Virus record (IMG/VR): IMGVR_UViG_3300032164_000001
Strand: one strand, 5' to 3'
Source of the DNA: a virus
DNA: 64,000 nt
The notes under the pieces were generated by a model. The model saw nothing but the letters and a program-made list of their open reading frames with translations, ran no database searches and was not told the DNA's origin. Below are positions 20,615 through 61,112 of this stretch, one piece after another. Position 1 is the stretch's first letter, and each line of letters begins with the position of its first letter. The position numbers and the translations under genes are program-made.

Positions 20615-22495
20615 ATGCAATCCATCGAGGCGCTCGGTCCAGCCGAGCGCATCATCGAAGCAATCACCAAGTACACTGATCACTGTCAGCATAATCGTCC
20701 AGGAACCATCGTTCCTGACGCAAGACAGCTTGTTGGCGTGCGCTGGGAGCAGGCCATCTGGTGCAAGGAGGGAGAGGAGAAGGTCGTCTACCGTGTGACG
20801 AAGACCGGGAAGAAGCAGACAAAGGCACGCATCGGTGTACTGGAAGCTGACGGGATGGTGAAGGATGCTGGAGTGGAGGTTGCCCGATGGCGAGAGCCAG
20901 GGCTGTTCCCTGAGGTTGTGGTGCACCTGTACCGGCAAGTGGCAGAGGTCTGGAAGCTCGACAACGAGTTCGCTGCCAGGTGGGCCTCGTGGGCCTTCGA
21001 GCACGAAGAGAACAGGGACCTGAAGATCCTGCTGGCCGCGTTCCTGCTGGTGCAGAATCGCTTCGGGGAGAAAGTTCCAGACTCGACACTGGCTGACGAG
21101 GACTACCGAACTGTTGGTGAGGCCATGTGCCTGCTCCGTCGGAAGACGGGCACCTTCAATCCGAAGATGCTCCTGCGTATCGGCGAGGTGCTGGAGCTGC
21201 CAGGTGTGATTGCAGTCAACCGTGAGCTCGGATTTGGACAGACAGGACGAAGGGCGGTGACCGGCCGGTACCGTGGCACGGTGGAGAAGTGGCTCCGATA
21301 CTACGAGAGCAACCCGGCCGTGCTCGAGATGTTGGTCAAGGCGGGCTTCCGTCGGTCCATCATGCAACTGTGTCGTGTCGTTGGCTACAAGCCAGAGACC
21401 GATGCATTCTTTGCCAAGCTGCGCTGGAAGCAGATTCAGGCGAAGGATGGCCGGCGAGGCATGGCGATCGGAAGTACGCTGACGGCGGCGGAGTCGTGGA
21501 AGGAACTTGATGAAGCGGAGATCTGCAAGCGCATCGTTTCTTCCGGTCTTGGCTGGAAGCGCATCGTGGGCATGCTGCCCTTCGGCGTTACTCCAGCCAT
21601 CATGGCCGCCGCAATCGAGGGGGAGACCCTGAGCGACGCGGACCTCGTCATTCTCACACCAACACTGGAGGAGCTCGGCCTGCTCTCCGTACCGGAGATA
21701 ACGGCACGCTGGAAGAGCGCAACGGAGCGAGCGGAGAACCAACGGGCGGCCCACATTGCACGTAACGTAAAGTCGGAGGCGGTGAAGGAACAGCTGCAGG
21801 TTGCAGTCGAGAAGGCTGTACAGAAGGCCGTCGAAGAGGTGACTCGTGACCTGCGAGTGTATGTTATTGTTGATAAATCCGGTTCGATGCGAGGAGCGAT
21901 CGAGCTGGCGAAGGAGTACCTGGCGAAGATGGTGGTGGCTTTCCCCCTGGACCGGCTGCACGTCTGTGTCTTCAACACCGTCGGGGTGGAAGTACAGATT
22001 CGTGTTCCAACAGCGGCTGGAGTATCTCAGGCATTCCGTGGGCACACGGCCGGCGGAGGTACGAGTTACGCTGCAGGGGCGTGGTGCCTCTTGCGGGACC
22101 ACAAGCCAAGGGAAGGCGAGGATGCACTGTTGATCTTCGTCGGAGACCAGGAGGACAACGGGGTCGAGCAGCTCGTGCAAGTGGTGAAGGGGTCAGGTGT
22201 AGCACCAGTGGCCTTCGGCATGCTACACGTGGCAAGTGCACCGGGAATGCAGCATGGAGGCTGGTACGGCTCGCCGGATGTTGTGGAACGTGCGGCGCAG
22301 GCCCTTGCCATCCCCTGTTTCAAGATAGCGGAGGAGATCTTCTCCGACGCGTACGCAGTGCCACGGACACTACGCAACCTGATTGCATCCACTCCGGTCA
22401 CGCATCCGACAATGCGCAAGACGGCGCCAAAGCGCAAGTCGCTCATCGAACAAATCTTGTCGACGCCACTTCTACAGCGTCCAGTATGGGCGTAG
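20615..22495 (+). CDS. vWA-domain protein with a large helical, basic N-terminal region (TROVE/Ro60-like architecture)
   Basis: MIDAS VIVDKSGSM, GGGTS, IFVGD in the C-terminal ~220 aa. The N-terminal ~400 aa look helical and Arg/Lys/Trp-rich. The Ro-like call is inferred from architecture and RNA neighbours. Confidence 0.7.
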   Translation: MQSIEALGPAERIIEAITKYTDHCQHNRPGTIVPDARQLVGVRWEQAIWCKEGEEKVVYRVTKTGKKQTKARIGVLEADGMVKDAGVEVARWREPGLFPEVVVHLYRQVAEVWKLDNEFAARWASWAFEHEENRDLKILLAAFLLVQNRFGEKVPDSTLADEDYRTVGEAMCLLRRKTGTFNPKMLLRIGEVLELPGVIAVNRELGFGQTGRRAVTGRYRGTVEKWLRYYESNPAVLEMLVKAGFRRSIMQLCRVVGYKPETDAFFAKLRWKQIQAKDGRRGMAIGSTLTAAESWKELDEAEICKRIVSSGLGWKRIVGMLPFGVTPAIMAAAIEGETLSDADLVILTPTLEELGLLSVPEITARWKSATERAENQRAAHIARNVKSEAVKEQLQVAVEKAVQKAVEEVTRDLRVYVIVDKSGSMRGAIELAKEYLAKMVVAFPLDRLHVCVFNTVGVEVQIRVPTAAGVSQAFRGHTAGGGTSYAAGAWCLLRDHKPREGEDALLIFVGDQEDNGVEQLVQVVKGSGVAPVAFGMLHVASAPGMQHGGWYGSPDVVERAAQALAIPCFKIAEEIFSDAYAVPRTLRNLIASTPVTHPTMRKTAPKRKSLIEQILSTPLLQRPVWA

Positions 22496-22498
22496 CAA

Positions 22499-23068
22499 AT
22501 GATTTACAGTCTTATCTTCACACATTGGAGCTATCTCAAATATGTGCTATGGCACAAATACTACGTAGGAGTTGAGTGCTTCAAAGAAGGACTGTGGTGG
22601 CGGGGGTTGAAGCATGACTGGCACAAGTTTCTCCCTTCAGAGTTTCTGCCCTACTCGAACTTCTTCTACGGTCCCAATGGAAAGAACAACACAATCCGGG
22701 ACAAGACTGGTTATTACAAACCTACCGATACAGGCAACAAAGCGTTTGATCGTGCTTGGTTCTGCCATCAGAAAAGAGCGGACCACCATTGGCAGTGGTG
22801 GGTCATGCCCGAAGATACCCAAGGTGTTAAGATTCTTCCCATGAGCGCACCAGCCATTGTGGAAATGATGAGTGATTGGTGCGGGGCTAGCAGAGCCCAG
22901 GGTCACGGTGGTTGGACTAGCCCCTCAGGAGTTTTTGCTTGGTATGCTACCAATGGACACAAGATGCAACTGCATCCGCAGACACGAGCTGTGATAGAAA
23001 TGGCGCTGCGCACAAAAGGAGCTGATAGTTCCAACACCAGATGGGGGTCGGAGAAGAAGCAGGATTGA
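22499..23068 (+). CDS. HD-like (DUF5662-type) protein
   Basis: HKYYV...HDWHKF...AWFCHQKR.DHHWQWW...EMMSDW.GA. Confidence 0.7.
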   Translation: MIYSLIFTHWSYLKYVLWHKYYVGVECFKEGLWWRGLKHDWHKFLPSEFLPYSNFFYGPNGKNNTIRDKTGYYKPTDTGNKAFDRAWFCHQKRADHHWQWWVMPEDTQGVKILPMSAPAIVEMMSDWCGASRAQGHGGWTSPSGVFAWYATNGHKMQLHPQTRAVIEMALRTKGADSSNTRWGSEKKQD

Positions 23069-24424: not shown

Positions 24425-26095
24425 ATGACGATTCACGAAAAGGTGCTACGCTTCGAACTATTGGCCTCGAGTTCTACTGAACTGAATTGGCTCGACGCCG
24501 CCTTCGTTCGCGCCGCCCTGGAAGTCAGAGCAGGTGCCTGCGACGATGATGAAGATCTGACTCTGCGACTGATTGAGACTCCGGTGGCTCAGCCCGTCTT
24601 CAAAGCCGTCGCTCATCCAGGTGTGACGCTGCGGGGCCTGATGCGAGATACAACACCCCACGACTTTGCGGCAATGATCTCCAACACGGGTTACCGCCTG
24701 TCCAAGGGATACATCGAGAGCATTCTTGCTGGAAGTAGTGACATCACCCCCTTGGCCGCCGAATGCATCGCGGAGGTCTTTGGCCCCTCCAAGGAATACT
24801 GGCTGCAACAGCAGGCGGACTACAATGCCTGGCGGCTGCACCACGACGCAGAATCCGTAGAAGCCCGAAGGTTCGATGCAGACATGGATCAGAACAAAGA
24901 AATCTGTGCGAATGCCGAACCAGCCAGTCCGAACCAGCAGTGTGACGCCAACCAGCCGATCTGGAGAGTAGTAGCAGAGGCCTTGTGGGGCATCCTTGAC
25001 GACATCAGCACGGCCGGCGACATCGCAAAGGGGGACGATGCGATGTACCGCGCGATGGTCGAGGACCTGCAGGCCAAGAAGAGTAACTACCTGGTCTCCT
25101 ACGACGGGCAGACGCTCGTTCGCACTGGCGGTGAACCGCCCCCGAATCCGCCCGTGGAAATGAGTACGCCAAGCAAGCCGAATGTCCTTCATCCGGGTGA
25201 GACACTGAAGATGATACTGAGGGAACGCAACCTCTCCATCGACGACTTGATCTCTTTCATCCGCAAGCTCTATCCGACCTGCGTCGACTTCGGTCCTGAT
25301 CGCATCGCTCTCCTTCTCCAGGGCGAGGCAGACATCTCCATCGACATTGCCTCGATGTTGCAAGGGGCTCTCGGTCCTACGCCATCGGCCTCATTGTGGC
25401 TGCAATGGCAAGCAGACTATAGCGCCCGTGCAGAGGCAGTGTATCTACAACAAGGAACGCCCGTGCAGAGGCGTCCAGTCGCGTCTTTGACGGAACAGCT
25501 GCAGGGTCGAGTCGCATGGCTCGAGCGTCAGATGGACACATGGGCAGAGCGCATCCGCAACCTCGAGAAGACGCTGGACGCCTGGCAAGAGACATCCTAC
25601 ACAGATCCCTGCAAGGAGTGCCAGGATTGCGGTTGCCTCTTTCTCCCCAGTGGAAACGAGAGAGATGCCACATTCAAGTGCCGACGCTGTACATCTCGGG
25701 TTGATCCTGCCGCACCGCCCAAGTGGGCGATCATGTCGGAGCGAGACGAGGCGCCTGACAAGGCACCTGAGCCGAATGCCCCTTCGCCGTGGGCACAAAT
25801 CCCCGATGCTCTGCTGGAGACACTGGCCGAGTACGCGCACACGGCCTGGTCGGGCTGGATGCAATACATACTCCAGCAGTGCCTCGGCGGTGAGGTGGCC
25901 GTGATAGATATGCGCCAGCCCAGTCCTGGCATCCCATTGTCGGGTGTGGCGGTCATTCCCTCCGAATTGGTTGAACGATGGAGCAGGCAGATGCACACGA
26001 CCTACGCCGATCTGCCGGAGGAGGAGAAGAAGAGCGACAGACTGGAGGCGCGGCGGATACTCGTCGGTCTTCGCACAGCGAAGGCGGTACCGTGA
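24425..26095 (+). CDS. Mosaic protein with two HigA-like HTH domains, a Zn ribbon and a C-terminal YADLPEEEK helical domain
   Basis: HPGVTL...ITP..A...FGPSKEYWLQQQADY; HPGETL...IS.DIA...SLWLQWQADY; CQDC...CRRC. Confidence 0.7.
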   Translation: MTIHEKVLRFELLASSSTELNWLDAAFVRAALEVRAGACDDDEDLTLRLIETPVAQPVFKAVAHPGVTLRGLMRDTTPHDFAAMISNTGYRLSKGYIESILAGSSDITPLAAECIAEVFGPSKEYWLQQQADYNAWRLHHDAESVEARRFDADMDQNKEICANAEPASPNQQCDANQPIWRVVAEALWGILDDISTAGDIAKGDDAMYRAMVEDLQAKKSNYLVSYDGQTLVRTGGEPPPNPPVEMSTPSKPNVLHPGETLKMILRERNLSIDDLISFIRKLYPTCVDFGPDRIALLLQGEADISIDIASMLQGALGPTPSASLWLQWQADYSARAEAVYLQQGTPVQRRPVASLTEQLQGRVAWLERQMDTWAERIRNLEKTLDAWQETSYTDPCKECQDCGCLFLPSGNERDATFKCRRCTSRVDPAAPPKWAIMSERDEAPDKAPEPNAPSPWAQIPDALLETLAEYAHTAWSGWMQYILQQCLGGEVAVIDMRQPSPGIPLSGVAVIPSELVERWSRQMHTTYADLPEEEKKSDRLEARRILVGLRTAKAVP

Positions 26096-26781
26096 GCAAC
26101 AAGTGCGACGAAGACATCTACGAGAACGGCCGAACGGTGCTGGTTATCGGCGATGAGTTCTCCGTGAACACGATCGAGGCCTTCGTGCAGAAAATCGCAC
26201 GTCGGTCGGGTCAGAAGGTCGACTGGCACTTCATCGCCGGCCGGGCCGCCCTCAGAGCCAAGGCCAACACGCAGGGCCTGCACAAGGTGGATGAGGCCAT
26301 CTACGGCTGTCCCGACGAGGTGGCCGCCTGGTGGAAAGCAGAGCTCGAGAAGAGTGGACGCGTCGCATACAAGGACTGCATCATGCGTTGCACGGGTGGG
26401 CTCTTGCTAGAACTCATGACCACCAAGAAGCCCAGTGAGGCGACCGGCACGGTCGACTACTGCAGTCCGCTCTATGGTTACCATCCGGGTGGTGACAACC
26501 ACTGGGCACGCGACGAACTGGGACTGGAAGCGTTCAACATGGCGAATAAGGTTGTCGTGGGCGCTTTGCGCCAGCACGTCCCAGTCGCCATCAGCTGGGT
26601 CTGCCCTGGATGCCAGACGCGAAACAAGTGCGACTACTCCGATGAGCACTACTTCGCAGACCCAAAGATCAATGCAGTCTTCGCGATCAACTTATGCTGT
26701 CCAGAGTGCAGCAAGGAAGTGGAGATCTTCGTGAAGCTACACTTGACACTCAGCCTCCATGCGAGATTGGAGAATGGCTAG
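26092..26781 (+). CDS. Hypothetical protein with a C-terminal Zn ribbon
   Basis: GQKVDWHFIAGRA motif; CPGC...CPEC. Confidence 0.55.
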   Translation: MSNKCDEDIYENGRTVLVIGDEFSVNTIEAFVQKIARRSGQKVDWHFIAGRAALRAKANTQGLHKVDEAIYGCPDEVAAWWKAELEKSGRVAYKDCIMRCTGGLLLELMTTKKPSEATGTVDYCSPLYGYHPGGDNHWARDELGLEAFNMANKVVVGALRQHVPVAISWVCPGCQTRNKCDYSDEHYFADPKINAVFAINLCCPECSKEVEIFVKLHLTLSLHARLENG

Positions 26782-27729
26782 ATGGTCTGGGAGAACCTGC
26801 TTCAGCACGCGGCGTCAGGCTACTTCGCATTCCCCTGGCTCGGCGGGCGAAAGATACACGGCAATGGGCGCACCTGGCGTGTCGTCAACAAGTTGCCTCC
26901 GGAGTTCGGATGGTGTCTGTTCGAGCTCAAGGGGGGTCGAACGGCGAAGTACTGCGAACAGGCAGAGCCATTGGCGAACTGGGAAAACGAGCATCACACA
27001 ACCCGTGGGTACATTGTCGGGGATAGGTTCATCCCGGAGAGGGCTCGAGTAGATCCCGATCCAGAGAGACTGGCAGAACAGACAATCGCAGTGTATCTGG
27101 TGGAGCGAGGACTGGATCGCTTCGCACCGTGCTTGGTGGCTTTCGAAGAGGAGAATAGAGCAATCTTCGTTCGTCAGCTATTCGACTCCGTAGTCGAGGA
27201 AAAGGCGCGTGAGGCCTTCATCGATCGAAGGGTTGACATTGCCTCCATCCGCGATGTTCCACCTGCTCTGGACTTGGCTTTTCGCTTCGCGAGTCGACAG
27301 AGGGAACTCGTGGAGCGACGTAGATTAGAGCTCGAGAAGCAACGACTGGAAGAAGAACGTCGAGAGGCTGCACTGAAGAGCATCGGCACGGGGCTCGGAC
27401 GACGGCAGCTGGCGACGACAGATTTTGCTGCAGCGGCTCGAGCTGCTCTGGCCGTGTCCGGGGCAGAGTTTCTGGATGCGCGCGAGGCTCACGGGCGAAA
27501 TGAGATGATCGTGCAGTACCGTTTCATGAATCGTCGCTTCGAGTGCGTTGTAGATCGACTGACACTGAGATTGACGGACAGCGGTGTATGCCTACAGGAC
27601 CATCGTGGAGTGAAAGGGGACACCAGGTTCACACTGGAGTCAATCCCAGGAGTGATCTCCGAGGCGATTCGAGAGAACAAACTGCACATCTACCGCCATG
27701 TCGACGACGAGGAAGAAGATTACTGGTAG
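26782..27729 (+). CDS. Hypothetical protein; C-terminal domain is a candidate divergent E2-like conjugase
   Basis: TDSGVCL (Cys codon 27589-27591) resembles the E2 D-x-G-x-(I/V)-C-L catalytic motif; first gene of the JAB-Ubl-E1 cluster. Confidence 0.45.
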   Translation: MVWENLLQHAASGYFAFPWLGGRKIHGNGRTWRVVNKLPPEFGWCLFELKGGRTAKYCEQAEPLANWENEHHTTRGYIVGDRFIPERARVDPDPERLAEQTIAVYLVERGLDRFAPCLVAFEEENRAIFVRQLFDSVVEEKAREAFIDRRVDIASIRDVPPALDLAFRFASRQRELVERRRLELEKQRLEEERREAALKSIGTGLGRRQLATTDFAAAARAALAVSGAEFLDAREAHGRNEMIVQYRFMNRRFECVVDRLTLRLTDSGVCLQDHRGVKGDTRFTLESIPGVISEAIRENKLHIYRHVDDEEEDYW

Positions 27730-27858
27730 AAATCAAGAGTGCGCACAACAACGAGATTGATTGCTGATGTCACGAGAACACAAAGTGTCGGGCTGTGACG
27801 ATTGTCCAGCTCTTTGGCCCGTGCAGAGGCATCGTATTTGCAACTGGAAGGCAAGAAG

Positions 27859-28260
27859 ATGGTAGAAGTGGCTCTGGTGTTCAACAGGCATGGGGTCGGT
27901 CTACAATGGCACAGGCCGAATGGGAAATGCTCGCATGGTGGCATTGGAGATGATCGCGGTCTGTGGGAATTCTTGTGGGCAAACCGGAAAGAAGTTGGTG
28001 GTGTGGCGCACACACATCCATGGGATGGACCGGCTGGACCATCAGGAACGGATGTAACGACATTCTCGGCGATAGAGAGAGGCTTAGGGGTCAAACTGGT
28101 GTGGCCAATCGTGACATTGACGGAGATCGGCTACTTCGAATGGGTTGGTCCGGACAAGCACGATTATGGCGATATGCGACTGCGCAGGTTCCGTTTGGAT
28201 CCAGCGGACATCGCAGAACTGCGAGAGCTTTCATTGAAAGGAGATAACGGAAATGGCTGA
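27859..28260 (+). CDS. JAB/MPN+ metallo-isopeptidase
   Basis: N-terminal Glu (VEVALV) and JAMM motif AHTHP...GPSGTD. Confidence 0.85.
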   Translation: MVEVALVFNRHGVGLQWHRPNGKCSHGGIGDDRGLWEFLWANRKEVGGVAHTHPWDGPAGPSGTDVTTFSAIERGLGVKLVWPIVTLTEIGYFEWVGPDKHDYGDMRLRRFRLDPADIAELRELSLKGDNGNG

Positions 28261-28561
28261 TATGGTTGTTTACGATGTGCCAATGGCCAGACTCAATATC
28301 ACATGGTCCGGGCAGAACGGAGACAATCCGGACTTGGTCCCGTGGGATTCATCGGATGCAGACATCCGGCGCATCGCAACGGAGGCCGTGTGCACTGGGT
28401 ACGTCGCTGGCATCCCGGCTGATCCGAATGTGGACTTCACAGACTTCGTCGTCGACCGCTTCCCGGCGACGGACGAACTGCCGTATAGATGCTTCGTCAG
28501 ATCGAAAACCCCCTTTGGAGGTTTTACGCGCTTGACTAGAATCGTTGCGCTAGTGCGCTAG
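28253..28561 (+). CDS. Ubiquitin-like (beta-grasp) protein precursor
   Basis: 102 aa; KTPFGG (GG at 28517-28522) followed by a 12-aa tail; lies between JAB and E1. Confidence 0.65.
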   Translation: MADMVVYDVPMARLNITWSGQNGDNPDLVPWDSSDADIRRIATEAVCTGYVAGIPADPNVDFTDFVVDRFPATDELPYRCFVRSKTPFGGFTRLTRIVALVR

Positions 28562-28577
28562 AAAAGGAGTTTTTGCC

Positions 28578-29366
28578 ATGCAAGACGTACAAGACGTACT
28601 CACACAACTATTGAGAAACAACACACAGCTTTCGAATGCCAAGAAGGCACACCTGATTGAGACGATGGCCGTGTATCGGATCGTGCGAGAAGTAATCGGG
28701 GAATCCACAGCCAGTGCCGTGCTGACACTGACGGCAGCGATAGCAAATCTTCATGCCACATTACAGCTCGGACTGACTTCCCCGTCTCACCTGTCCCAGA
28801 ACGGCGCCCCACCTTGGGCGCCTACACCAATGCCCACAGCGCAGTCGCCTGTACAGGCTCCTGCACCAATGCCCGTGGCACTTGCCGCCACGGTGCCAGA
28901 GAGCAAGAAGCCGAAGAAAAAAGTAGCCCCCCTCGGCAAAGGCTATACGCTGATGGTAACCAAGACTGAACTTCGCACATCCGGTCAAGAGAATAAGTAC
29001 ATGAATACAACCTTTGTGATAACGCGCGCTCCTGATCAGATAGACGAACCGGGACAGACGCCGGAGAAGTTCGAAGAATTCAGACAATCCGTCGGGATGG
29101 CAATCGCTGAACAGCGACTCATGCTGGAGGGGAACGGGACGCCCTTGACAGTGGAATTCTTGATCGCATGCGGCATTGACATACCCCCTGACCTCATCAC
29201 ATTGGACATAAGCAAGCCCATCTACAGGTTGGTGACGGCAGAAGTCAAGTTCTATGACAAATTCAACAATGAAGAACACGAAAAACTTCGGAACTACCGA
29301 CCTGTTGACTGCTCACAGGAGCGCTTGATCGAACAAGTTCTCAGTTCTGGCCCGGGGTCAATCTGA
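28578..29366 (+). CDS. Hypothetical protein: helical N-domain, Pro/Lys linker, possible DUF669-like OB domain
   Basis: KGYTLMVTKTELRTS...KYMNTTFVI; its stop overlaps the E1 start (TGATG). Confidence 0.45.
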   Translation: MQDVQDVLTQLLRNNTQLSNAKKAHLIETMAVYRIVREVIGESTASAVLTLTAAIANLHATLQLGLTSPSHLSQNGAPPWAPTPMPTAQSPVQAPAPMPVALAATVPESKKPKKKVAPLGKGYTLMVTKTELRTSGQENKYMNTTFVITRAPDQIDEPGQTPEKFEEFRQSVGMAIAEQRLMLEGNGTPLTVEFLIACGIDIPPDLITLDISKPIYRLVTAEVKFYDKFNNEEHEKLRNYRPVDCSQERLIEQVLSSGPGSI

Positions 29367-29962
29367 TGCAAAAGGAGCGGCCCTGGCCAAAGGTTGCCGT
29401 TGTCGGAATAGGCGCCCTGGGTTCGCATGTCGTCTTGCTTGCTCGGAATTGGAAGGCGAAGCTGCGTGTCATCGACGGCGACAAGGTCGAGCAGAAGAAT
29501 GTGCTGGCACAGATGCATTCAGAGCTAGGGAAGGGGAGGAACAAGGCTGCGGCACTTAAGGTGTTGATGCAGGGCATGTTCCGCCTGGAGATAGAAGCCT
29601 TCCCCGTGAAGGTCAACGAATGGAACTTGAAGGGGCTGCTCGGTGAGATGGCGCTGATCATCGACTGCACCGACAACGTGGCGGCTCGAAACTGCATCAA
29701 GTCGTTTGCACTGAAGGATGAGATTCCTTGCCTGCATGTGTGCTTATCGGCTGATGGAATGCTGGCCCGAGTGGTGTGGGCTCAACAGAACTTCAAGGCT
29801 GACAAAGAGAGTGGAGACGGAGCGACGTGTGAGGACGGGGCGAATGTGTGGTTCCACGCGATGGCGGCTGCACTCGTCGTGCGACTGGCCCAGCAGTTCC
29901 TGCTCGATGGTCGAATGGAAAGCTGGATGCTTGCGCCAGCAGCTCTCCTCAGGATAGCATAG
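29366..29962 (+). CDS. ThiF/MoeB/E1-like adenylyltransferase
   Basis: VAVVGIGALGS, IDGDKVEQKN..AQ, GRNKA, IIDCTDNVAAR; candidate catalytic Cys in ATCED. Confidence 0.9.
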   Translation: MQKERPWPKVAVVGIGALGSHVVLLARNWKAKLRVIDGDKVEQKNVLAQMHSELGKGRNKAAALKVLMQGMFRLEIEAFPVKVNEWNLKGLLGEMALIIDCTDNVAARNCIKSFALKDEIPCLHVCLSADGMLARVVWAQQNFKADKESGDGATCEDGANVWFHAMAAALVVRLAQQFLLDGRMESWMLAPAALLRIA

Positions 29963-30237: not shown

Positions 30238-30310
30238 TTGACAGATCAGCCTAATTCGATCTAAAATACGGGCGGCTTGGGTGGGGTAAGGTTATTGTAT
30301 GTAGGGTTTT
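30238..30310 (+). promoter_or_regulatory. Repeat A copy 4
   Basis: TTGACA-18-TAAAAT plus a leader identical to copy 3; faces - strand genes. Confidence 0.85.
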
Positions 30311-30445: not shown

Positions 30446-30760
30446 TCACCCGTTTGAGCATGCTGGCTGGGGTAGGCCGGCTATCTTGCAAGCGAGGGAC
30501 AATCCCGCGGGGAACAGCTTGTAGAGCGTCGTCAGCGTGAGCTTGCACCCGGTGCAGACCTCGCGAACGTGTGGCGAGCGGTGCTTGCTGACATAGAAGC
30601 ACCTGAGAAACTCGATGACCTCGATGTGTGGCACGTCGAGCTCGAGGCCGAGCTTCCGGGCATAGGAGACGGCAATGGGCGGCTCCCAGTCACTTGCATG
30701 GACGAAGTAGCCGTTGCCATCCAGTTGGATGATACGGCCAAGGGTGTTCAACGTCTTCAC
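30446..30760 (-). CDS. TusE/DsrC-family sulfur relay protein
   Basis: LDGNGYF...DW...A...GLEL...H.EVIEFLR.FY...P...LYKLFPAG...ACKIAGLPQPAC. Confidence 0.9.
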   Translation of the reverse strand: MKTLNTLGRIIQLDGNGYFVHASDWEPPIAVSYARKLGLELDVPHIEVIEFLRCFYVSKHRSPHVREVCTGCKLTLTTLYKLFPAGLSLACKIAGLPQPACSNG

Positions 30761-31002
30761 TTCGGCGTCAGGCTGGCAAGAAGTCCGTCCATGACGCCAT
30801 CGATGATCTTGTCGAGAGCCTCGTCGACGGCTGTGTCAACAGCGTCATCGGGGAGAGGGATCTCAACGGAAAAGGTGTCGGAGTCGTCTGAACCGGAATG
30901 CTCTGCATCTTCTGAGCCGGAATGCTCTGCATCTTCTGAGCCGGAATGCTCTGCATCTTCACCTGGGTCATATTTACACACATATGCTGAAAATTCTTTC
31001 AT
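30757..31002 (-). CDS. Small acidic protein with a 27-bp tandem repeat (EDAEHSGS-type unit) x3
   Basis: Repeat at about 30890-30960. Confidence 0.5.
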   Translation of the reverse strand: MKEFSAYVCKYDPGEDAEHSGSEDAEHSGSEDAEHSGSDDSDTFSVEIPLPDDAVDTAVDEALDKIIDGVMDGLLASLTPK

Positions 31003-57171: not shown

Positions 57172-58212
57172 ATGGCAAACAACCTGAATGACCTGACGCG
57201 CCAGGCGTTGAGGCTGCACGCTGGCCTTGGACTCGTGACAGATCCAAGCCAGTACTCGGACAACTTCAGTCTGTTCTGGGCCGAGCTGATTGACAAGCGA
57301 CCGGACGTGCTGGCCGCAAAGCCGACGCTGACGCTGCGCTGCTGCATACACATGCAAGCGTGCTGGCTGGCCTGCGGCATGCCAGTCTTTCAGATCGACG
57401 AGAACCTGTTGGCCGGCCTGCTGCTGACAGACGCAGGCAGCGTGACAGCGGAAGAGTGGCACATGCCCTATGGCACATTCGCCGTGTTGTTGCCATCAGG
57501 TTTCTGGCAGATGGAAAATCTGTGCACTCCAGGAGCCATGAGCAATGCTTGGTGCGTCATCTTTCATCGGTATCACACACTGACCAAGGCTATCTACCAG
57601 GGAGATGCAAGACTGCAGACGTACTTGCAGGCGTACATCACGAATGAAGACGGCTCCGAGATATGGCAACGCTCGTTGCCACCGACGAGTGGCGCATTGG
57701 AACCCTGGCTGCTCGAGACACGATATGGAGTAGCCGAGGGCGATGTCGTCGAGCCGACTTCGGAGTACGAGGCCACGTTGTTGCAGGCATGCAAACAATT
57801 GGTCGTGAACCTGAGCCTGTTGATAGCCGAACAAGGTCCGGGCAAGCGCGTGGTCACTCCTGTTCGCAACAAGGCCAAGCTGCGCCGACTGAAGAAGAAC
57901 GCATCATCTAATGCATCACGTGGTCCATCTGCTCTGGGGCCGCAGGCCCCAGAGGTATGGCAGCTTGGGAAGGTAGCATTGTTGTCAGCAGAGTTGATCG
58001 CCGCCGCGAAGGCATGTGGAAGAGCGAAGGAGCGGACGGAGTGGAAGATCTCGAAGAGGTTCACCGTGCGAGGCCATTGGCGTGAGCAGGCATACGGAGA
58101 GGGCGGGCTGTTGAGGCGAAGGAAATGGATCGCACCATACTGGAAGGGCGCCGGAGTGAAGCTAGCGCATCTCTACACCATGGATGTAGACAAAGGAGAG
58201 GGGAAACCATGA
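57172..58212 (+). CDS. Conserved phage protein with a C-terminal VRGHWR.Q.YG...WI.PYWKG motif
   Basis: Motif recognised; ATGA overlap with the ATPase gene. Confidence 0.65.
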   Translation: MANNLNDLTRQALRLHAGLGLVTDPSQYSDNFSLFWAELIDKRPDVLAAKPTLTLRCCIHMQACWLACGMPVFQIDENLLAGLLLTDAGSVTAEEWHMPYGTFAVLLPSGFWQMENLCTPGAMSNAWCVIFHRYHTLTKAIYQGDARLQTYLQAYITNEDGSEIWQRSLPPTSGALEPWLLETRYGVAEGDVVEPTSEYEATLLQACKQLVVNLSLLIAEQGPGKRVVTPVRNKAKLRRLKKNASSNASRGPSALGPQAPEVWQLGKVALLSAELIAAAKACGRAKERTEWKISKRFTVRGHWREQAYGEGGLLRRRKWIAPYWKGAGVKLAHLYTMDVDKGEGKP

Positions 58213-61112
58213 AGTCCCTGGAGAAGCAGCAAGAGGTAGCCAACCTGATCAGAGCCAAGATGCCCGTGATCTACATCGTTGGCAGCGAAGAGCGACGGAT
58301 GCAGTCTGCCCTTCTGAACATCGCCGGCTCGCTGAAGATGGACATGTACCTGTGGTCCATCGTGTCCGGCATGCTGAAGGTCGGTGAGAGCGAGGCAGTC
58401 CCCTGCAACGATCCAGCGCAGGCGCTGGGCTTCATCGCCGAGTCGAAGTCTCGAGCCATCTTCGTGCTGCGAGACTTCCATCCGTACATCGAGCCGGGCA
58501 CTGCCAACGTGGCGAACATCAGGATGCTGCGCGAGCTGGCCGGAGAGTTGAAGAATAGCAAGCAGGCATCGGCTCGAGTGGTTGTCATCCTCGCACCGAA
58601 GCTCGTGCTGCCGGACGAGCTGCGCTCCGATGTGATCACGATGGAGTGGCCACTGCCGGACAAGGAAGAGCTGCATGCGGCAGCCGTGTCCGTGGTGGCA
58701 TCGTTGCCGAGCGAGCTCAAGAAGGAGATGCCAGCGGCTGGTCCGGAGATGGACAAGTTGCTCACGGACGTGAGCTCGGCGGCGCAGGGACTGACCTTGG
58801 AGGAAGCGCAGAATGGCTTCGCCCTGTCAGCCATTGCCTATCGAACAATTCGTCCATCGGAAGTGGCCAAGTACAAGAAGCAGATCGTGTCACGTGACGG
58901 TCTTCTCGAATGGATTGAGCCAGAGGGCGACCTGGATTCCATCGGAGGCCTGGACCTGCTGAAGACCTGGCTCATGGAGCGCAAGCTGGGCCTGTCGCAA
59001 GCTGCACGGGACTATGGATTGCCGGAGCCAAAAGGAATAGCTTGCGTCGGGGCACCCGGGACGGGAAAGTCGATGGCGGCCAAGGCGGTGGCGGTGGCCT
59101 GGGACTTGACACTGGTGCGCCTGGACTTCGGAGCGCTTTATGGCTCTCTGCTTGGCGAGTCTGAGACCAACTTGCGCAAGGCATTGAGAACCATAGAGGC
59201 TGTGTCTCCAACAGTTGTACTGGCGGACGAGTTGGAAAAGGGCCTCGGTGGTTCTGGTCCGGAAGGGGCTGCCTCGGATGGTGGCACGTCGTCACGCATT
59301 CTTGGAACATTTCTGACATGGATGCAGGAACGACGTGGGGCCACAAGTTTTGTATTCGCTTGCCTCACAGCTGATTCAAGGGTGCTGCTGAAAGATGGAA
59401 CCATCACCAAGATCAGTGCTATCGACACCAACGCAAAAGTGGTGACCTGTGACCCATTCACCGGGAAAACAACAATAGCCACGCCAGACCTGAAAGTAGC
59501 GCCAATCGCCCCGGTGGTCAGAAGTGTTACCACAACGACTGGGAGGTTTACTGCCACTCCGGATCATCCAGTATATGTCGTGGGCCGATGTGGAATAGAG
59601 GAGTGCCCTGTTGGTGCGCTACAAGTGGGCGACCGATTAGCCCGCCTGCGGAAACTGCCGGAACCGACTTCAACTTGTCTGCCGTTGATAACTGATGTCG
59701 GATGTGACAATCCGCATGAAGGCGAGATCCATTTGCCATCTGTTTTGGACGAGACGGTGGCTGAAGTGCTGGGCTTCTTTTGCGCGGATGGCACGACGCA
59801 CAAACCAGGTAGAATGATGATTTGTGATAAGCATCCACAACTGATCGAGCATGAAATGGAACTCATGCATGGTTTGCGGTGGAGGCCAGGCAAACACGTT
59901 GTGAGGGGCCGCTGCTCCATCTTGGTTTATCTTGACTCCGCACGTCTATTAAGATGGTTTATCGCTAACTTTCCAGAATTGGTGCGCACCAAGATTGATG
60001 CCCGTCGTGTACCACAGGCCATTTTCCGTAGTCCGGATCGCGTTGTCGCTGCATTCCTACGTGGCTTCATGGATGGTGATGGCACTGTAACGCCGAACGG
60101 TCTCATTCAGGTCGCCGGAGTAAATTTCGATCTGATACGCGATGTGGCGCATCTGCTGCATCGACTGGGTATTGGCTACACGAAGAGTAGATATTTTCCG
60201 AGTGCGCCCCGACGCACTGTACTTAGGTTGACGATTGCTGCCAGTAGAGACCTTAATGCATTTTCCACTCTCGTGGGCTTCGCTTGCGACTACAAGCAGG
60301 CCCGTCTGTTGAAACGCCTGAGGAAGCAGCAAAGAAAGCACAAGGCCGCAGATTTAGATACCGTGGCAGTACCAGAAGTTCTGATGAACGAGGTTCTATC
60401 TGCTACCGGCCTGCCAGCTGCCGCCTTCAACTATTACTCCGACAGAAGAAGCAATGGGCAGGACACAGCCTTGTGGATCTTCCAGCAATGGATCGACAAG
60501 GCAGCCGATCGACTTGGTCCTGCGCATGCTCTGATTCAGAGAATGCATGCAATCTCACAATTTACATGGGATAAGGTGATAGCAGTCGAAGAGCACATGG
60601 GTGCCATACCAGTGTTTGATATTGGCGTGCCAAAGACCCACACGTTCATCTCGGATGGTTTGGTGATGCACAACACGCTCAACAGAGTTGATGGTCTTCC
60701 TCCGGAGCTGCTCCGAGCTGGTAGATGGGATGCTCTTTGGTACGTCTCGTTGCCCACAGACAGTGAGAGACGAGCCATATTCAATGTCCATCTGCGCAAG
60801 CGTGGACGCAAGCCAGAACTGTTCGACCTCGCCCTGCTTGCCAACGGCACAGAAGGGTACTCTGGTGCGGAGATCGAGCAGATCGTCGTGGACGGTATGT
60901 TCTACGCTTTTGCCGATGGTCAACGAGAAGTAGTCACTGCCGACTTGCTCAAGGCCGCAAAGACGCTGGTGCCGTTGTCGAAGACAGCGGCGGAGAAAAT
61001 TGAGGCGATGCGCACCTGGGCAAAGGGTCGAGCCAGGATGGCATCTTCTCCAGAAACAGCGGAGACTTCGACGTCGGCCATCCAGAATGCCAGATTCTCG
61101 GCTATGGACTGA
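58209..61112 (+). CDS. Ycf46-like AAA+ ATPase containing an intein
   Basis: LRDFHPY N-domain; IGGLD.LK.WL; Walker A GAPGTGKS; Walker B VLADELEK; second region of homology LPPELLRAGRWD. Confidence 0.9.
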   Translation: MKSLEKQQEVANLIRAKMPVIYIVGSEERRMQSALLNIAGSLKMDMYLWSIVSGMLKVGESEAVPCNDPAQALGFIAESKSRAIFVLRDFHPYIEPGTANVANIRMLRELAGELKNSKQASARVVVILAPKLVLPDELRSDVITMEWPLPDKEELHAAAVSVVASLPSELKKEMPAAGPEMDKLLTDVSSAAQGLTLEEAQNGFALSAIAYRTIRPSEVAKYKKQIVSRDGLLEWIEPEGDLDSIGGLDLLKTWLMERKLGLSQAARDYGLPEPKGIACVGAPGTGKSMAAKAVAVAWDLTLVRLDFGALYGSLLGESETNLRKALRTIEAVSPTVVLADELEKGLGGSGPEGAASDGGTSSRILGTFLTWMQERRGATSFVFACLTADSRVLLKDGTITKISAIDTNAKVVTCDPFTGKTTIATPDLKVAPIAPVVRSVTTTTGRFTATPDHPVYVVGRCGIEECPVGALQVGDRLARLRKLPEPTSTCLPLITDVGCDNPHEGEIHLPSVLDETVAEVLGFFCADGTTHKPGRMMICDKHPQLIEHEMELMHGLRWRPGKHVVRGRCSILVYLDSARLLRWFIANFPELVRTKIDARRVPQAIFRSPDRVVAAFLRGFMDGDGTVTPNGLIQVAGVNFDLIRDVAHLLHRLGIGYTKSRYFPSAPRRTVLRLTIAASRDLNAFSTLVGFACDYKQARLLKRLRKQQRKHKAADLDTVAVPEVLMNEVLSATGLPAAAFNYYSDRRSNGQDTALWIFQQWIDKAADRLGPAHALIQRMHAISQFTWDKVIAVEEHMGAIPVFDIGVPKTHTFISDGLVMHNTLNRVDGLPPELLRAGRWDALWYVSLPTDSERRAIFNVHLRKRGRKPELFDLALLANGTEGYSGAEIEQIVVDGMFYAFADGQREVVTADLLKAAKTLVPLSKTAAEKIEAMRTWAKGRARMASSPETAETSTSAIQNARFSAMD
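59361..60674 (+). mobile_element. Intein (438 aa) with a LAGLIDADG homing endonuclease
   Basis: N-terminal CLTADSRV; block B TATPDHP; VLGFFCADG and FLRGFMDGDG; block F/G VFDIGV...MHN|T. Splicing restores FVFA-TLNR (sensor 1). Confidence 0.95.

What the first reader, a model, noticed from the sequence alone, without database searches (positions are those of the whole stretch)
26782..29962. Phage-borne ubiquitin-like conjugation cassette: E2-like, JAB, Ubl (GG + tail), X, E1
Seen: co-oriented genes, with JAB/Ubl and X/E1 overlapping. They encode a JAMM peptidase (HTHP...S..D), a 102-aa protein with PFGG masked by a 12-aa extension, a ThiF/E1 lacking the CxxC zinc motifs but with a lone Cys (ATCED), and an upstream protein with an E2-like DSGVCL motif. 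Established: bacterial E1/E2/JAB/Ubl operons (Bil, Bub, CBASS Cap2/Cap3) conjugate proteins, JAB enzymes unmask the C-terminal Gly, and the characterised antiviral cases are host defences. Inference: here a virus appears to carry its own pathway, either to modify host or virion proteins or to antagonise host Ubl defence. No ThiG, MoaE or Cys synthase is adjacent, which argues against cofactor biosynthesis.
Basis: partly seen in the sequence, partly recalled or inferred. Interest (0 to 1): 0.85.

Follow-up and report, generated by a model that had tools for sequence, protein, structure and literature searches.

The report
Ubiquitin-like tagging kit in huge phage
This huge phage carries a small ubiquitin-like protein with its activating enzyme and trimming protease, as part of a conserved five-gene set also found in myxobacterial chromosomes and undescribed in the papers I could search; what it tags is unknown.

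Summary
The genes are real. The E1 (ThiF, E 1e-19), the JAMM peptidase and the small ubiquitin-like protein (Ubl) are supported.

- **Ubl end.** Only the first Gly of "PFGG" (G89) is conserved. After it come tails of 0 to over 50 residues. All 9 related loci without the peptidase have a Ubl that ends exactly at that Gly.
- **"X" (28578-29366).** It is not conserved. It is one of many local inserts, which in relatives are often homing endonucleases.
- **"E2-like" protein.** It belongs to a large unnamed family: two OB-like barrels, a long helix and an alpha/beta domain. One cysteine (C270, D-x-G-I-C-L) is kept in every copy examined. Fold searches gave no convincing UBC match (best Z 4.5; UBC/RWD rows 3.4-3.8), so E2 membership is unproven.
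- **True unit.** There are five genes: vWA protein (20615-22495), this protein, JAB, Ubl and E1. The order is fixed in 65 huge-phage contigs, usually inside tRNA arrays, and in Myxococcota chromosomes. It is therefore not phage-specific.

My best reading is covalent Ubl transfer through E1 C155 and C270. E2-less conjugation and sulfur transfer remain open.

This scan has reported the same module at least eight times on other DNA. I found no paper describing it.

The parts
20615..22495 (+). vWA protein (626 aa): about 400 aa N-terminal region plus a C-terminal vWA domain with a complete MIDAS (D420-x-S-x-S, T483, D511). Fifth conserved member of the module. Earlier scan notes call it Ro60/TROVE-like.
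   Evidence: Pfam vWA families hit in 36/36 relatives, TROVE in none. PDB profile hits cover the vWA domain only. It lies directly upstream of the A315 homologue in 64/65 phage loci and in 23/29 MAG loci, where the rest are mostly cut short at the contig end.
22499..26781 (+). Window-specific insert between the vWA gene and the rest: DUF5662 (22499-23068), small ORFs, a 556-aa HTH protein (24425-26095) and a 267-aa Cys-rich protein (25978-26781). Not part of the conserved module.
   Evidence: No tblastn match in 94 related loci. Pfam and PHROGs results.
26782..27729 (+). A315: the candidate Ubl carrier ('E2-like' in function). Two N-terminal OB/cold-shock-like beta barrels (about 13-135), a long helix (161-201), and a C-terminal alpha/beta domain (204-300) holding the universally conserved C270 (codon 27589-27591) in D-S-G-V-C-L.
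   Evidence: 250 or more homologues with no Pfam domain; 438 clusters at 50% identity. AF2 pLDDT 86 for the whole protein and 84 for the domain. Barrels: Dis3L2 CSD Z 5.1, Mpa inter-domain Z 5.0. C270 is kept and C255 lost in divergent chromosomal copies.
27859..28260 (+). JAMM/MPN+ metallopeptidase (133 aa from the ATG at 27859; the ORF opens at a TTG at 27802). Catalytic E22, H70, H72, S81, D84 in 152-aa numbering.
   Evidence: Pfam Prok-JAB E 0.0027. Invariant H-x-H, S and D, near-invariant E. The family profile hits only Rpn11/PSMD14 in the PDB, weakly (E 0.13), across the H-S-H-P-G...S..D motif. Shine-Dalgarno-like GGAAGG before 27859.
28253..28519 (+). Mature ubiquitin-like protein, residues 1-89, ending ...R-S-K-T-P-F-G89.
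   Evidence: 118 homologue clusters. R83, K85, F88 and G89 are invariant. The ESM Atlas model's named structural neighbours are all beta-grasp families: YukD, ubiquitin, PB1, RnfH, PRKD1-N ubiquitin-like and UBX, at TM 0.42-0.51.
28520..28561 (+). 13-aa C-terminal tail (G-F-T-R-L-T-R-I-V-A-L-V-R) plus the stop codon. Predicted to be removed by the JAB peptidase.
   Evidence: Tails after the invariant Gly run from 0 to over 50 aa and are unrelated in sequence. All 9 JAB-less loci have no tail.
28578..29366 (+). X (262 aa): a non-conserved insert with no detectable family. Not part of the module.
   Evidence: No hits in Pfam, PADLOC, PHROGs or NCBIfam. No relative in 94 loci. In relatives the same gaps hold HNH or LAGLIDADG homing endonucleases.
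29366..29962 (+). Minimal E1-like adenylating enzyme (198 aa). It has the G-x-G-A-L-G-S-H nucleotide loop, D-C-T-D-N, and conserved C155 (codon 29828-29830) in G-A-T-C-E-D-G. It has no CxxC zinc motifs and no rhodanese or E2 domain.
   Evidence: Pfam ThiF 1e-19. PADLOC Cap2 models match through the E1 part only. Best PDB hit is MoeB 1JW9 at 1e-7. All NCBIfam hits fall far below their cut-offs. Motif conservation with n=80.

Best explanation
This is a five-gene ubiquitin-like transfer system.

1. The JAMM peptidase trims the Ubl precursor just after the invariant Gly89, removing the 13-residue tail.
2. The minimal E1 adenylates that Gly and takes the Ubl onto its conserved Cys155.
3. The Ubl then passes to Cys270 of the 315-aa protein. 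That protein would act as the carrier (an E2 in function, whatever its ancestry) and would bring the reaction to an RNA or an RNA-bound partner through its two OB-like barrels.
4. The acceptor is probably a protein of the same particle, most plausibly the co-inherited vWA protein or its clients. The peptidase could also reverse the mark.

Shown: the gene set, the catalytic motifs, the processing logic and the co-inheritance. Inferred: both thioester steps, the carrier role of C270 and the target. The setting inside phage tRNA arrays suggests that the system serves tRNA or small-RNA upkeep during infection.
For: - E1: ThiF domain above the Pfam cut-off, with conserved nucleotide-binding motifs and a conserved Cys.
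- Peptidase: full JAMM motif, invariant.
- Ubl: beta-grasp neighbours only. Invariant terminal Gly followed by tails of variable length and sequence.
- Processing logic: 9 of 9 JAB-less loci have a tail-less Ubl, against 13 of 70 with JAB. JAB was lost at least 5 separate times on the tree and is never absent where a tail is present.
- A315: always present between the vWA gene and JAB (94/94 loci). C270 in D-x-G-I-C-L is the one Cys kept even in copies that score only about 120-150 bits. Its domain has a helix, four-strand meander, Cys loop and helix layout. UBC-superfamily entries recur among the weak fold matches with the longest alignments: Ubc9 Z 3.7 over 80 aa, FANCL Z 3.8 over 81 aa, FANCL DRWD Z 3.5 over 77 aa, a BRISC chain Z 3.4 over 88 aa, and kinetochore RWDs Z 3.4-3.6.
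- No other gene is conserved in the module, and no sulfur-transfer enzyme recurs nearby.
Against: - No search places A315 in the UBC/E2 family. Fold matches are at background level, and equally good ones go to PepSY-like and DsbC/DsbG N-terminal domains.
- There is no HPN motif.
- Prokaryotic Ubl systems without any E2 exist (SAMP/UbaA, TtuB/TtuC; from my own knowledge), so a carrier is not required.
- The phylogeny-aware test of the JAB/tail link has too few independent pairs to be significant (5 pairs, p about 0.25).
- The 'Ro60-like' nature of the vWA partner was not reproduced by sequence searches.
Confidence: 0.45

Rival explanations
1. E2-independent conjugation, as in archaeal sampylation. 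The E1 alone activates the Ubl and hands it to lysines. A315 and the vWA protein are substrates, adaptors or the thing being regulated, not a carrier enzyme.
For: No UBC fold or family signal was found for A315. The E1 is a minimal MoeB/ThiF-type enzyme with a conserved Cys. E1 + Ubl + JAMM without an E2 is a known working arrangement (SAMP/UbaA/HvJAMM1 and Thermus TtuB/TtuC; my own knowledge). Earlier scan notes reached the same comparison.
Against: It does not explain why a single Cys in a fixed D-x-G-I-C-L motif is kept across the whole A315 family, including very divergent chromosomal copies. NCBIfam's UbaA model scores 42 bits against a cut-off of 450.
Confidence: 0.25
2. Sulfur carrier. 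The E1 adenylates the trimmed Ubl, which becomes a C-terminal thiocarboxylate and donates sulfur, for instance to thiolate the phage's own tRNAs. A315 (OB barrels plus Cys) and the vWA protein would hold the RNA.
For: In phages the module lies inside tRNA arrays, for example 41 tRNAs around it in L001 and L002 and over 30 before it in phage Rctr197k. The best family hits of the E1 are ThiF, MoeB and Uba4. JAMM peptidases also unmask sulfur carriers (QbsD/QbsE, Mec/CysO; my own knowledge). A DsrC/TusE-like sulfur-relay gene lies 500 bp downstream here (30446-30760, E 5e-20).
Against: No PP-loop thiolase, rhodanese or cysteine desulfurase recurs near the module. The DsrC-like gene is found in only 1 of 94 other loci. 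The E1 has no rhodanese domain and no CxxC motifs. The Ubl ends in F-G rather than the G-G usual for sulfur carriers; Atg8- and Atg12-type conjugated Ubls end in F-G (my own knowledge). Several chromosomal copies have no tRNA genes nearby.
Confidence: 0.15
3. Counter-defence, one of the first reader's two alternatives. The phage uses its own E1, JAB and Ubl to interfere with host Ubl-based immunity (Bil, CBASS Cap2/Cap3, Bub), for example by stripping or mimicking host conjugates.
For: The E1 matches the E1 domain of Cap2 models at 1.7e-14. A JAMM peptidase could deconjugate host marks.
Against: The same complete operon is chromosomal in Myxococcota, among ordinary cellular genes. It always travels with its own Ubl, the vWA protein and A315, not alone. 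It belongs to no known defence family.
Confidence: 0.05

Closest known systems
Archaeal sampylation (SAMP1-3 / UbaA / HvJAMM1) and Thermus TtuB / TtuC with a JAMM peptidase
   Same: A small beta-grasp protein with a C-terminal Gly, one minimal MoeB/ThiF-type E1 with a conserved Cys, a JAMM peptidase, no recognisable UBC E2, and links to tRNA biology.
   Different: The Ubl family has no sequence relation that I could detect and ends in F-G plus a variable tail. The E1 lacks the zinc CxxC motifs and scores far below the UbaA model. Two obligatory extra partners, the vWA protein and the OB-plus-Cys protein, have no counterpart.
Bacterial antiviral Ubl systems: CBASS Cap2/Cap3, Bil (BilABCD) and Bub (Ye et al. 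2024, PMC11601596)
   Same: E1 + Ubl (or Ubl-like tail) + peptidase operons in bacteria. The peptidase exposes or removes the C-terminal Gly. The E1 domain is similar to Cap2 (PADLOC 1.7e-14).
   Different: There is no fused or separate UBC-type E2, no CD-NTase, and no serine protease or oxyester chemistry implied (Cys is conserved here). Partner genes differ. It is also carried by phages, inside tRNA arrays.
Ro60 (Rsr) / Y RNA particles, including phage-encoded TROVE proteins (Iyer et al. 2021, PMC7824862; Rambo et al. 2021, 10.1101/2021.07.29.454249)
   Same: A roughly 600-aa protein with a C-terminal vWA/MIDAS domain next to tRNA-like genes. Nidhogg viruses are reported to encode both a Ro60 (TROVE + vWA) protein and ThiF/E1 homologues.
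   Different: Those papers do not link the two as one operon. The TROVE domain was not detectable here by Pfam or PDB profile searches, so the Ro60 identity rests on earlier scan notes that I did not reproduce.
UBC/E2 enzymes
   Same: A Cys in a G-x-(I/V)-C-L motif in the loop after a four-strand meander that follows N-terminal helices, with a helix after the loop. Weak structural rows to Ubc9, FANCL RWD and a BRISC-complex chain.
   Different: No HPN motif, and the Cys lies only 4 residues after strand 4. There is no sequence or profile match. Z is at most 3.8, level with unrelated folds. The domain is fused to two OB-like barrels and a coiled coil.

Membership tests
ThiF/MoeB/E1 adenylating enzymes | Rossmann-type ThiF domain scoring above the family threshold | tested here: met
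   PF00899, 71.1 bits against 28.1, E 1e-19, residues 9-156. MoeB 1JW9 E 1e-7.
ThiF/MoeB/E1 adenylating enzymes | Gly-rich nucleotide loop and acidic metal-binding motif conserved | tested here: met
   G-x-G-A-L-G-S-H and D-C-x-D-N are kept in at least 90% of 80 members.
ThiF/MoeB/E1 adenylating enzymes | Structural zinc site (two CxxC pairs) of MoeB/ThiF-type enzymes | tested here: not met
   There is no CxxC in the 198-aa sequence. This defines a sub-type, not the superfamily.
Thioester-forming E1 (UbaA, Cap2, eukaryotic E1) | Conserved Cys after the adenylation core | tested here: met
   C155 in G-a-T-C-E-d-G is conserved in at least 90% of 80 members. Its equivalence to the MoeB/ThiF cross-over-loop Cys is from memory, not aligned here.
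JAMM/MPN+ metallopeptidases | E ... H-x-H-x(7-8)-S-x-x-D metal and catalytic motif | tested here: met
   H, H, S and D are invariant and E is at least 90% conserved in 49 sequences. The spacing has one extra residue.
JAMM/MPN+ metallopeptidases | Family model above threshold | tested here: inconclusive
   Prok-JAB 18 bits against a cut-off of 25. The family profile hits only Rpn11/PSMD14 in the PDB, at E 0.13.
Ubiquitin-like (beta-grasp) modifiers | Beta-grasp fold | tested here: met
   For the ESM Atlas model (pTM 0.69), the seven named neighbour clusters all carry beta-grasp families (YukD twice, ubiquitin, PB1, RnfH, PRKD1-N ubiquitin-like, UBX) at TM 0.42-0.51. This is moderate strength; I made no AF2 model of it.
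Ubiquitin-like (beta-grasp) modifiers | Conserved C-terminal Gly exposed directly or after peptidase trimming | tested here: met
   G89 is invariant. Tails run from 0 to over 50 aa. The Ubl is tail-less wherever JAB is absent, 9 of 9 loci.
Ubiquitin-like (beta-grasp) modifiers | Covalent attachment to targets | not testable with these tools
   Needs biochemistry.
UBC/E2 conjugating enzymes | UBC fold | tested here: inconclusive
   Domain model pLDDT 84. Foldseek found nothing. VIA best Z 4.4-4.5, to PepSY-like and DsbC N-terminal domains. Ubc9 Z 3.7, FANCL 3.8 and 3.5, a BRISC-complex chain 3.4.
UBC/E2 conjugating enzymes | Family model match (UQ_con or Prok-E2_A to E) | tested here: not met
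   No such hit at E up to 10 in 40 members. None in the PDB profile searches.
UBC/E2 conjugating enzymes | HPN motif before the catalytic Cys | tested here: not met
   The sequence between strand 4 and C270 is only D-S-G-V. Many prokaryotic E2s also lack HPN (my own knowledge).
UBC/E2 conjugating enzymes | Invariant Cys in the loop after the beta-meander | tested here: met
   C270 is invariant in 40 and 61 sequences and in 5 divergent copies.
CBASS Cap2/Cap3 | E1-E2 fusion together with a CD-NTase and a Cap3 JAB | tested here: not met
   PADLOC E1-E2 models align only over their E1 part, for example positions 278-409 of 489. There is no CD-NTase in the module.
Ro60/TROVE proteins (the vWA partner) | TROVE domain followed by a vWA domain | tested here: inconclusive
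   The vWA domain with MIDAS is present in 36/36 relatives. TROVE is not detected in any by Pfam at E up to 1, nor by the PDB profile search. I made no structure model of it.

The most novel reading that the evidence does not exclude
This would be the first prokaryotic link between ubiquitin-like chemistry and a small-RNA or tRNA surveillance particle. The vWA (Ro60-like) protein and the OB-plus-Cys protein would recognise tRNA-like or damaged RNAs, and the E1/Ubl pair would mark the particle or its clients covalently. On this reading the system is shared and exchanged between huge phages and myxobacteria, and A315 is a new, non-UBC (or unrecognisably diverged) class of Ubl carrier.
Probability: 0.3. 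Interest if true: 0.85.

Novelty: new variant of a known kind. Interest (0 to 1): 0.68.

Why it matters
Bacterial ubiquitin-like systems have so far been tied to cofactor or tRNA sulfur chemistry, or to antiviral defence. This one is built from a new Ubl family, a stripped-down E1, and two partner proteins with no counterpart in those systems. Huge phages keep it next to their tRNA genes, and it also lives in myxobacterial chromosomes.

If the conserved cysteine protein carries the Ubl, it is either a very divergent E2 or an independent invention of that role. That bears on how E2 enzymes arose. If the target is the RNA-binding partner, it would connect protein tagging to RNA quality control outside eukaryotes.

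The family is large, with hundreds of clusters, and it is unannotated in public records. In phage Rctr197k the E1 is labelled thiamine-biosynthesis ThiF-like and the A315 gene is not called at all.

Tried and rejected
- **Family scans.** Pfam, PADLOC, PHROGs and NCBIfam on all five proteins: only the E1 and, weakly, the JAB are recognised.
- **DNA search** of the region against GenBank phages: no match.
- **E1 as a single-protein query in IMG/VR:** nothing. The A315 alignment then worked.
- **PDB searches.** Single-sequence searches for JAB and the vWA protein found nothing. Profiles of the Ubl and A315 gave only chance-level rows such as cholera toxin B and nanobodies.
- **Fold searches of A315.** On the whole protein, only the OB-like barrels are matched. 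On the C-terminal domain alone there is no match above Z 4.5.
- **ESM Atlas** for the A315 domain: no usable hit and no model held.
- **Profile of the C-terminal domain against 1.84 billion representatives:** the 150 rows listed all have the same architecture, so no informative distant context emerged.
- **Prok-E2_B** in five Myxococcota genomes: nothing, but the controls did not ring either, so this is uninformative.
- **X as a diverged copy of the recurrent intervening genes:** rejected. HMMs of seven neighbour clusters find nothing in the window.
- **DsrC-like gene as a module member:** rejected. It occurs in only one other locus.


Full report
**What is in the window.**
JAB and Ubl overlap by 8 nt; X and E1 overlap by 1 nt. 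No + strand promoter-like site lies between 20212 and 30238, and no + strand terminator-like site lies after 21858. A strong promoter-like site (11 of 12 matches) follows the E1 gene at 30238-30267. The stretch from the vWA gene at 20615 to the E1 stop can therefore be one transcription unit.

**The three clear enzymes and substrates.**
- **E1 (29366-29962).** It carries a ThiF domain well above the Pfam threshold (E 1e-19). It matches the E1 part of PADLOC Cap2 models (1.7e-14) and MoeB in the PDB (1e-7). It reaches no curated NCBIfam cut-off, so it is a family of its own. Across 80 relatives the nucleotide loop, the D-C-x-D-N motif and a G-a-T-C-E-d-G motif are kept in at least 90% of sequences. 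There is no CxxC.
- **Peptidase.** It scores only E 0.0027 on Prok-JAB. Its E, H-x-H, S and D residues are invariant or nearly so in 49-78 relatives. The family profile hits nothing in the PDB except Rpn11/PSMD14, across that motif (E 0.13). Conservation and a GGAAGG box place its start at the ATG at 27859, not the TTG at 27802.
- **Ubl (102 aa).** It has 118 homologue clusters. The ESM Atlas model of this exact protein has, beyond its own family, seven named neighbour clusters, all of beta-grasp families: YukD (twice), ubiquitin, PB1, RnfH, PRKD1-N ubiquitin-like and UBX, at TM 0.42-0.51.

**The C-terminus.**
The alignment shows ...R-P-K-T-P-F-G with R83, K85, F88 and G89 invariant. The second Gly of this window's 'PFGG' is not conserved: the next residue is A, S, V, C, R, K, D, T or F, or is absent. 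In 91 loci the tail after the invariant Gly ranges from 0 to over 50 residues, most often one. Some tails carry CxxC pairs that look like zinc ribbons. The mature end is therefore a single Gly, and here the tail is 13 residues.

Nine related loci have no JAB gene between A315 and the Ubl, and all nine have a Ubl that stops exactly at that Gly. Among tree rows with JAB, 13 of 70 are tail-less (raw Fisher p 1.2e-4). On a tree of the vWA protein, JAB was lost at least five separate times. The phylogeny-aware pair test never goes the wrong way, but it has only five pairs and is not significant (p about 0.25). I read this as good, not conclusive, support for the view that the peptidase's job is to unmask Gly89.

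**What the cassette really comprises.**
I used an alignment of the 315-aa protein to fetch 65 IMG/VR loci, from contigs of 5.5 to 619 kb. I then placed every window protein from 20.6 to 32.2 kb on them by tblastn.

| Protein | Loci with a match (of 65) |
|---|---|
| A315 | 65 |
| JAB | 65 |
| Ubl | 65 |
| E1 | 60 |
| vWA protein (20615-22495) | 64 |

The order is always vWA, A315, JAB, Ubl, E1. The vWA gene often ends within 10-40 nt of the A315 start.

X (28578-29366) and everything between 22499 and 26781 match nowhere. Clustering of all other ORFs around the module shows that the recurrent intervening genes sit at varying positions. The three I scanned are HNH or LAGLIDADG homing endonucleases. 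X and the 4.3-kb block are therefore local inserts in a five-gene module.

**Setting.**
In the phage loci the module lies inside the tRNA gene array, often with a tmRNA. L001 and L002 each have 41 ARAGORN genes in the locus, on both sides of the module; L022 has 34 and L027 has 29. The only GenBank phage with the module is Rctr197k (197 kb). It has more than 30 tRNAs just upstream. Its E1 is labelled 'thiamine biosynthesis protein ThiF-like', its vWA gene is a misc_feature, and A315 is not annotated.

**Not phage-specific.**
- A scan of one genome per species found 29 loci, all in MAGs and mostly Myxococcota, with the same gene order and host-like G+C of 65-74% with no dip over the module.
- In a 544-kb Polyangiaceae contig the module lies between an EF-Tu gene and a TPR Ser/Thr kinase.
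- In a 253-kb Myxococcales contig its neighbours are an M49 peptidase, a PPIase, HupE/UreJ and a GDSL lipase.
- Of 401 sampled Myxococcota genomes, 10 have an A315 match.
- Five of the weaker matches were fetched. They lie in contigs of 138 kb to 3.2 Mb (three of them 3.2 Mb, 1.19 Mb and 746 kb). Four keep the whole vWA-A315-JAB-Ubl-E1 order; the fifth looks degraded.
- On the vWA tree, phage and MAG rows are interleaved, with at least 8 changes forced by well-supported branches. The direction of transfer cannot be read from an unrooted tree.
- Some MAG contigs with many tRNAs (L071, L085) may be mis-binned phages.

**The 'E2-like' protein.**
It belongs to a large family with no Pfam domain: 250 hits, and 438 clusters at 50% identity. 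AlphaFold gives a confident model (pLDDT 86):
- two N-terminal beta barrels;
- a 40-residue helix;
- a C-terminal domain with two helices, a four-strand meander, a 20-residue loop and a helix.

The barrels resemble the cold-shock domains of Dis3L2 and RNase R and the double-OB inter-domain of Mpa (Z about 5). The best viral match is a phage S1 protein.

I modelled the C-terminal domain alone (pLDDT 84). It has no Foldseek match. Its best VIA scores are 4.4-4.5, to PepSY-like and DsbC/DsbG N-terminal domains over about 50 residues. Several UBC-superfamily entries appear at Z 3.4-3.8 with longer alignments of 65-88 residues: Ubc9, FANCL and its RWD domain, a BRISC-complex chain and kinetochore RWDs. 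That is suggestive and no more. Pfam at E up to 10 on 40 members, and profile searches of the PDB, give no E2 family.

The strongest fact is conservation. C270 in D-x-G-I-C-L is invariant in all alignments and in the five divergent chromosomal copies. The second 'invariant' Cys, C255, is lost in those copies. The motif recalls the G-x-I-C-L-D of canonical E2 active sites (my own knowledge), but there is no HPN. I therefore say that the protein probably works like a Ubl carrier, and that its membership of the UBC family is not established.

**The vWA partner.**
It has a complete MIDAS motif and vWA hits in all 36 relatives scanned. Neither Pfam nor a PDB profile search detects a TROVE domain. 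Earlier notes of this scan call it Ro60-like, and I could not confirm that with the tools left. Rambo et al. report that Nidhogg viruses encode both a Ro60 (TROVE + vWA) protein and three ThiF/E1 homologues, but treat them separately. The jumbo-phage survey of Iyer et al. mentions TROVE proteins without any Ubl link.

**Mechanism.**
My best reading (0.45) is: JAB trimming at G89, adenylation and a thioester on E1 C155, transfer to A315 C270, then attachment to a partner, probably within an RNA-bound particle that includes the vWA protein.

| Rival | Weight | Main points |
|---|---|---|
| E2-less conjugation, as in SAMP/UbaA | 0.25 | A315 would be a substrate or adaptor, not a carrier |
| Sulfur-carrier role, e.g. 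tRNA thiolation | 0.15 | Favoured by the tRNA setting, the ThiF/MoeB-like E1 and a DsrC/TusE-like gene 500 bp downstream (30446-30760). Weakened because no thiolase, rhodanese or desulfurase is conserved nearby, the DsrC-like gene occurs in only one other locus, and the Ubl ends in F-G |
| Counter-defence | 0.05 | Unlikely, given the chromosomal copies |

**Novelty.**
Six full-text searches found no paper that describes this operon. This scan has met the same module at least eight times in other genomes, with the same conclusion, so it is not new to the project. One of those reports was later marked 'part of it fell', and I do not know which part.

New here, as far as I can tell from the short notes:
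- the link between JAB loss and a tail-less Ubl;
- C270 as the only cysteine of A315 kept in every copy examined;
- the homing-endonuclease nature of the recurrent inserts;
- the domain-level fold test of the E2 idea.

**Limits.**
The fold evidence for the Ubl rests on the Atlas's ESMFold model, not on one I made.

Noticed in passing
window 30446-30760 (-): DsrC/TusE-like sulfur-relay protein (PF04358, E 4.9e-20) with two C-terminal cysteines (…L-A-C-…-P-A-C-S-N-G), 500 bp downstream of the E1 on the opposite strand. Among 94 related loci it is found only in the closest relative, L002.
   Followed up: partly
L001, L002, L010, L022, L027 and most other IMG/VR loci; L095 (phage Rctr197k): The module is embedded in large phage tRNA arrays (up to 41 ARAGORN genes per 16-kb locus), often with a phage tmRNA gene (L001 11865-12243, L010 13744-14101, L027 15517-15877).
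   Followed up: partly
L094 2187-2768, L010 2891-3526, L020 10156-11115 and others: HNH and LAGLIDADG homing-endonuclease genes are inserted at varying positions between the five core genes. This explains the variable spacing of the module.
   Followed up: yes
L054, L056, L047, L059 (Ubl C-termini); protein P0122: Some Ubl precursors carry long tails with CxxC...CxxC, zinc-ribbon-like, after the invariant Gly. The peptidase would then release a second small domain.
   Followed up: no
L082 6555-7940: A full-length EF-Tu gene lies directly upstream of the vWA gene in a 544-kb Polyangiaceae contig, and three tRNA-Ser genes lie directly downstream of the E1.
   Followed up: no
window 58125-61112 (+): A 995-aa AAA+ ATPase (phrog_8638) is interrupted by an intein with a LAGLIDADG endonuclease domain.
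   Followed up: no
window 22499-23068 (+): A DUF5662 protein (E 2e-33) lies immediately after the vWA gene. It is window-specific and absent from related loci.
   Followed up: no
window 30757-31002 (-): A small acidic ORF with three tandem copies of an 8-residue peptide (E-D-A-E-H-S-G-S).
   Followed up: no
L095 7001-7939 (KX853510.1): In the GenBank record of phage Rctr197k the A315 homologue is not annotated: a short ORF on the opposite strand is called instead. The vWA gene is only a misc_feature.
   Followed up: yes
L051 13898-14749 and four other loci: A metallo-beta-lactamase-fold protein recurs downstream of the module in five phage loci.
   Followed up: no
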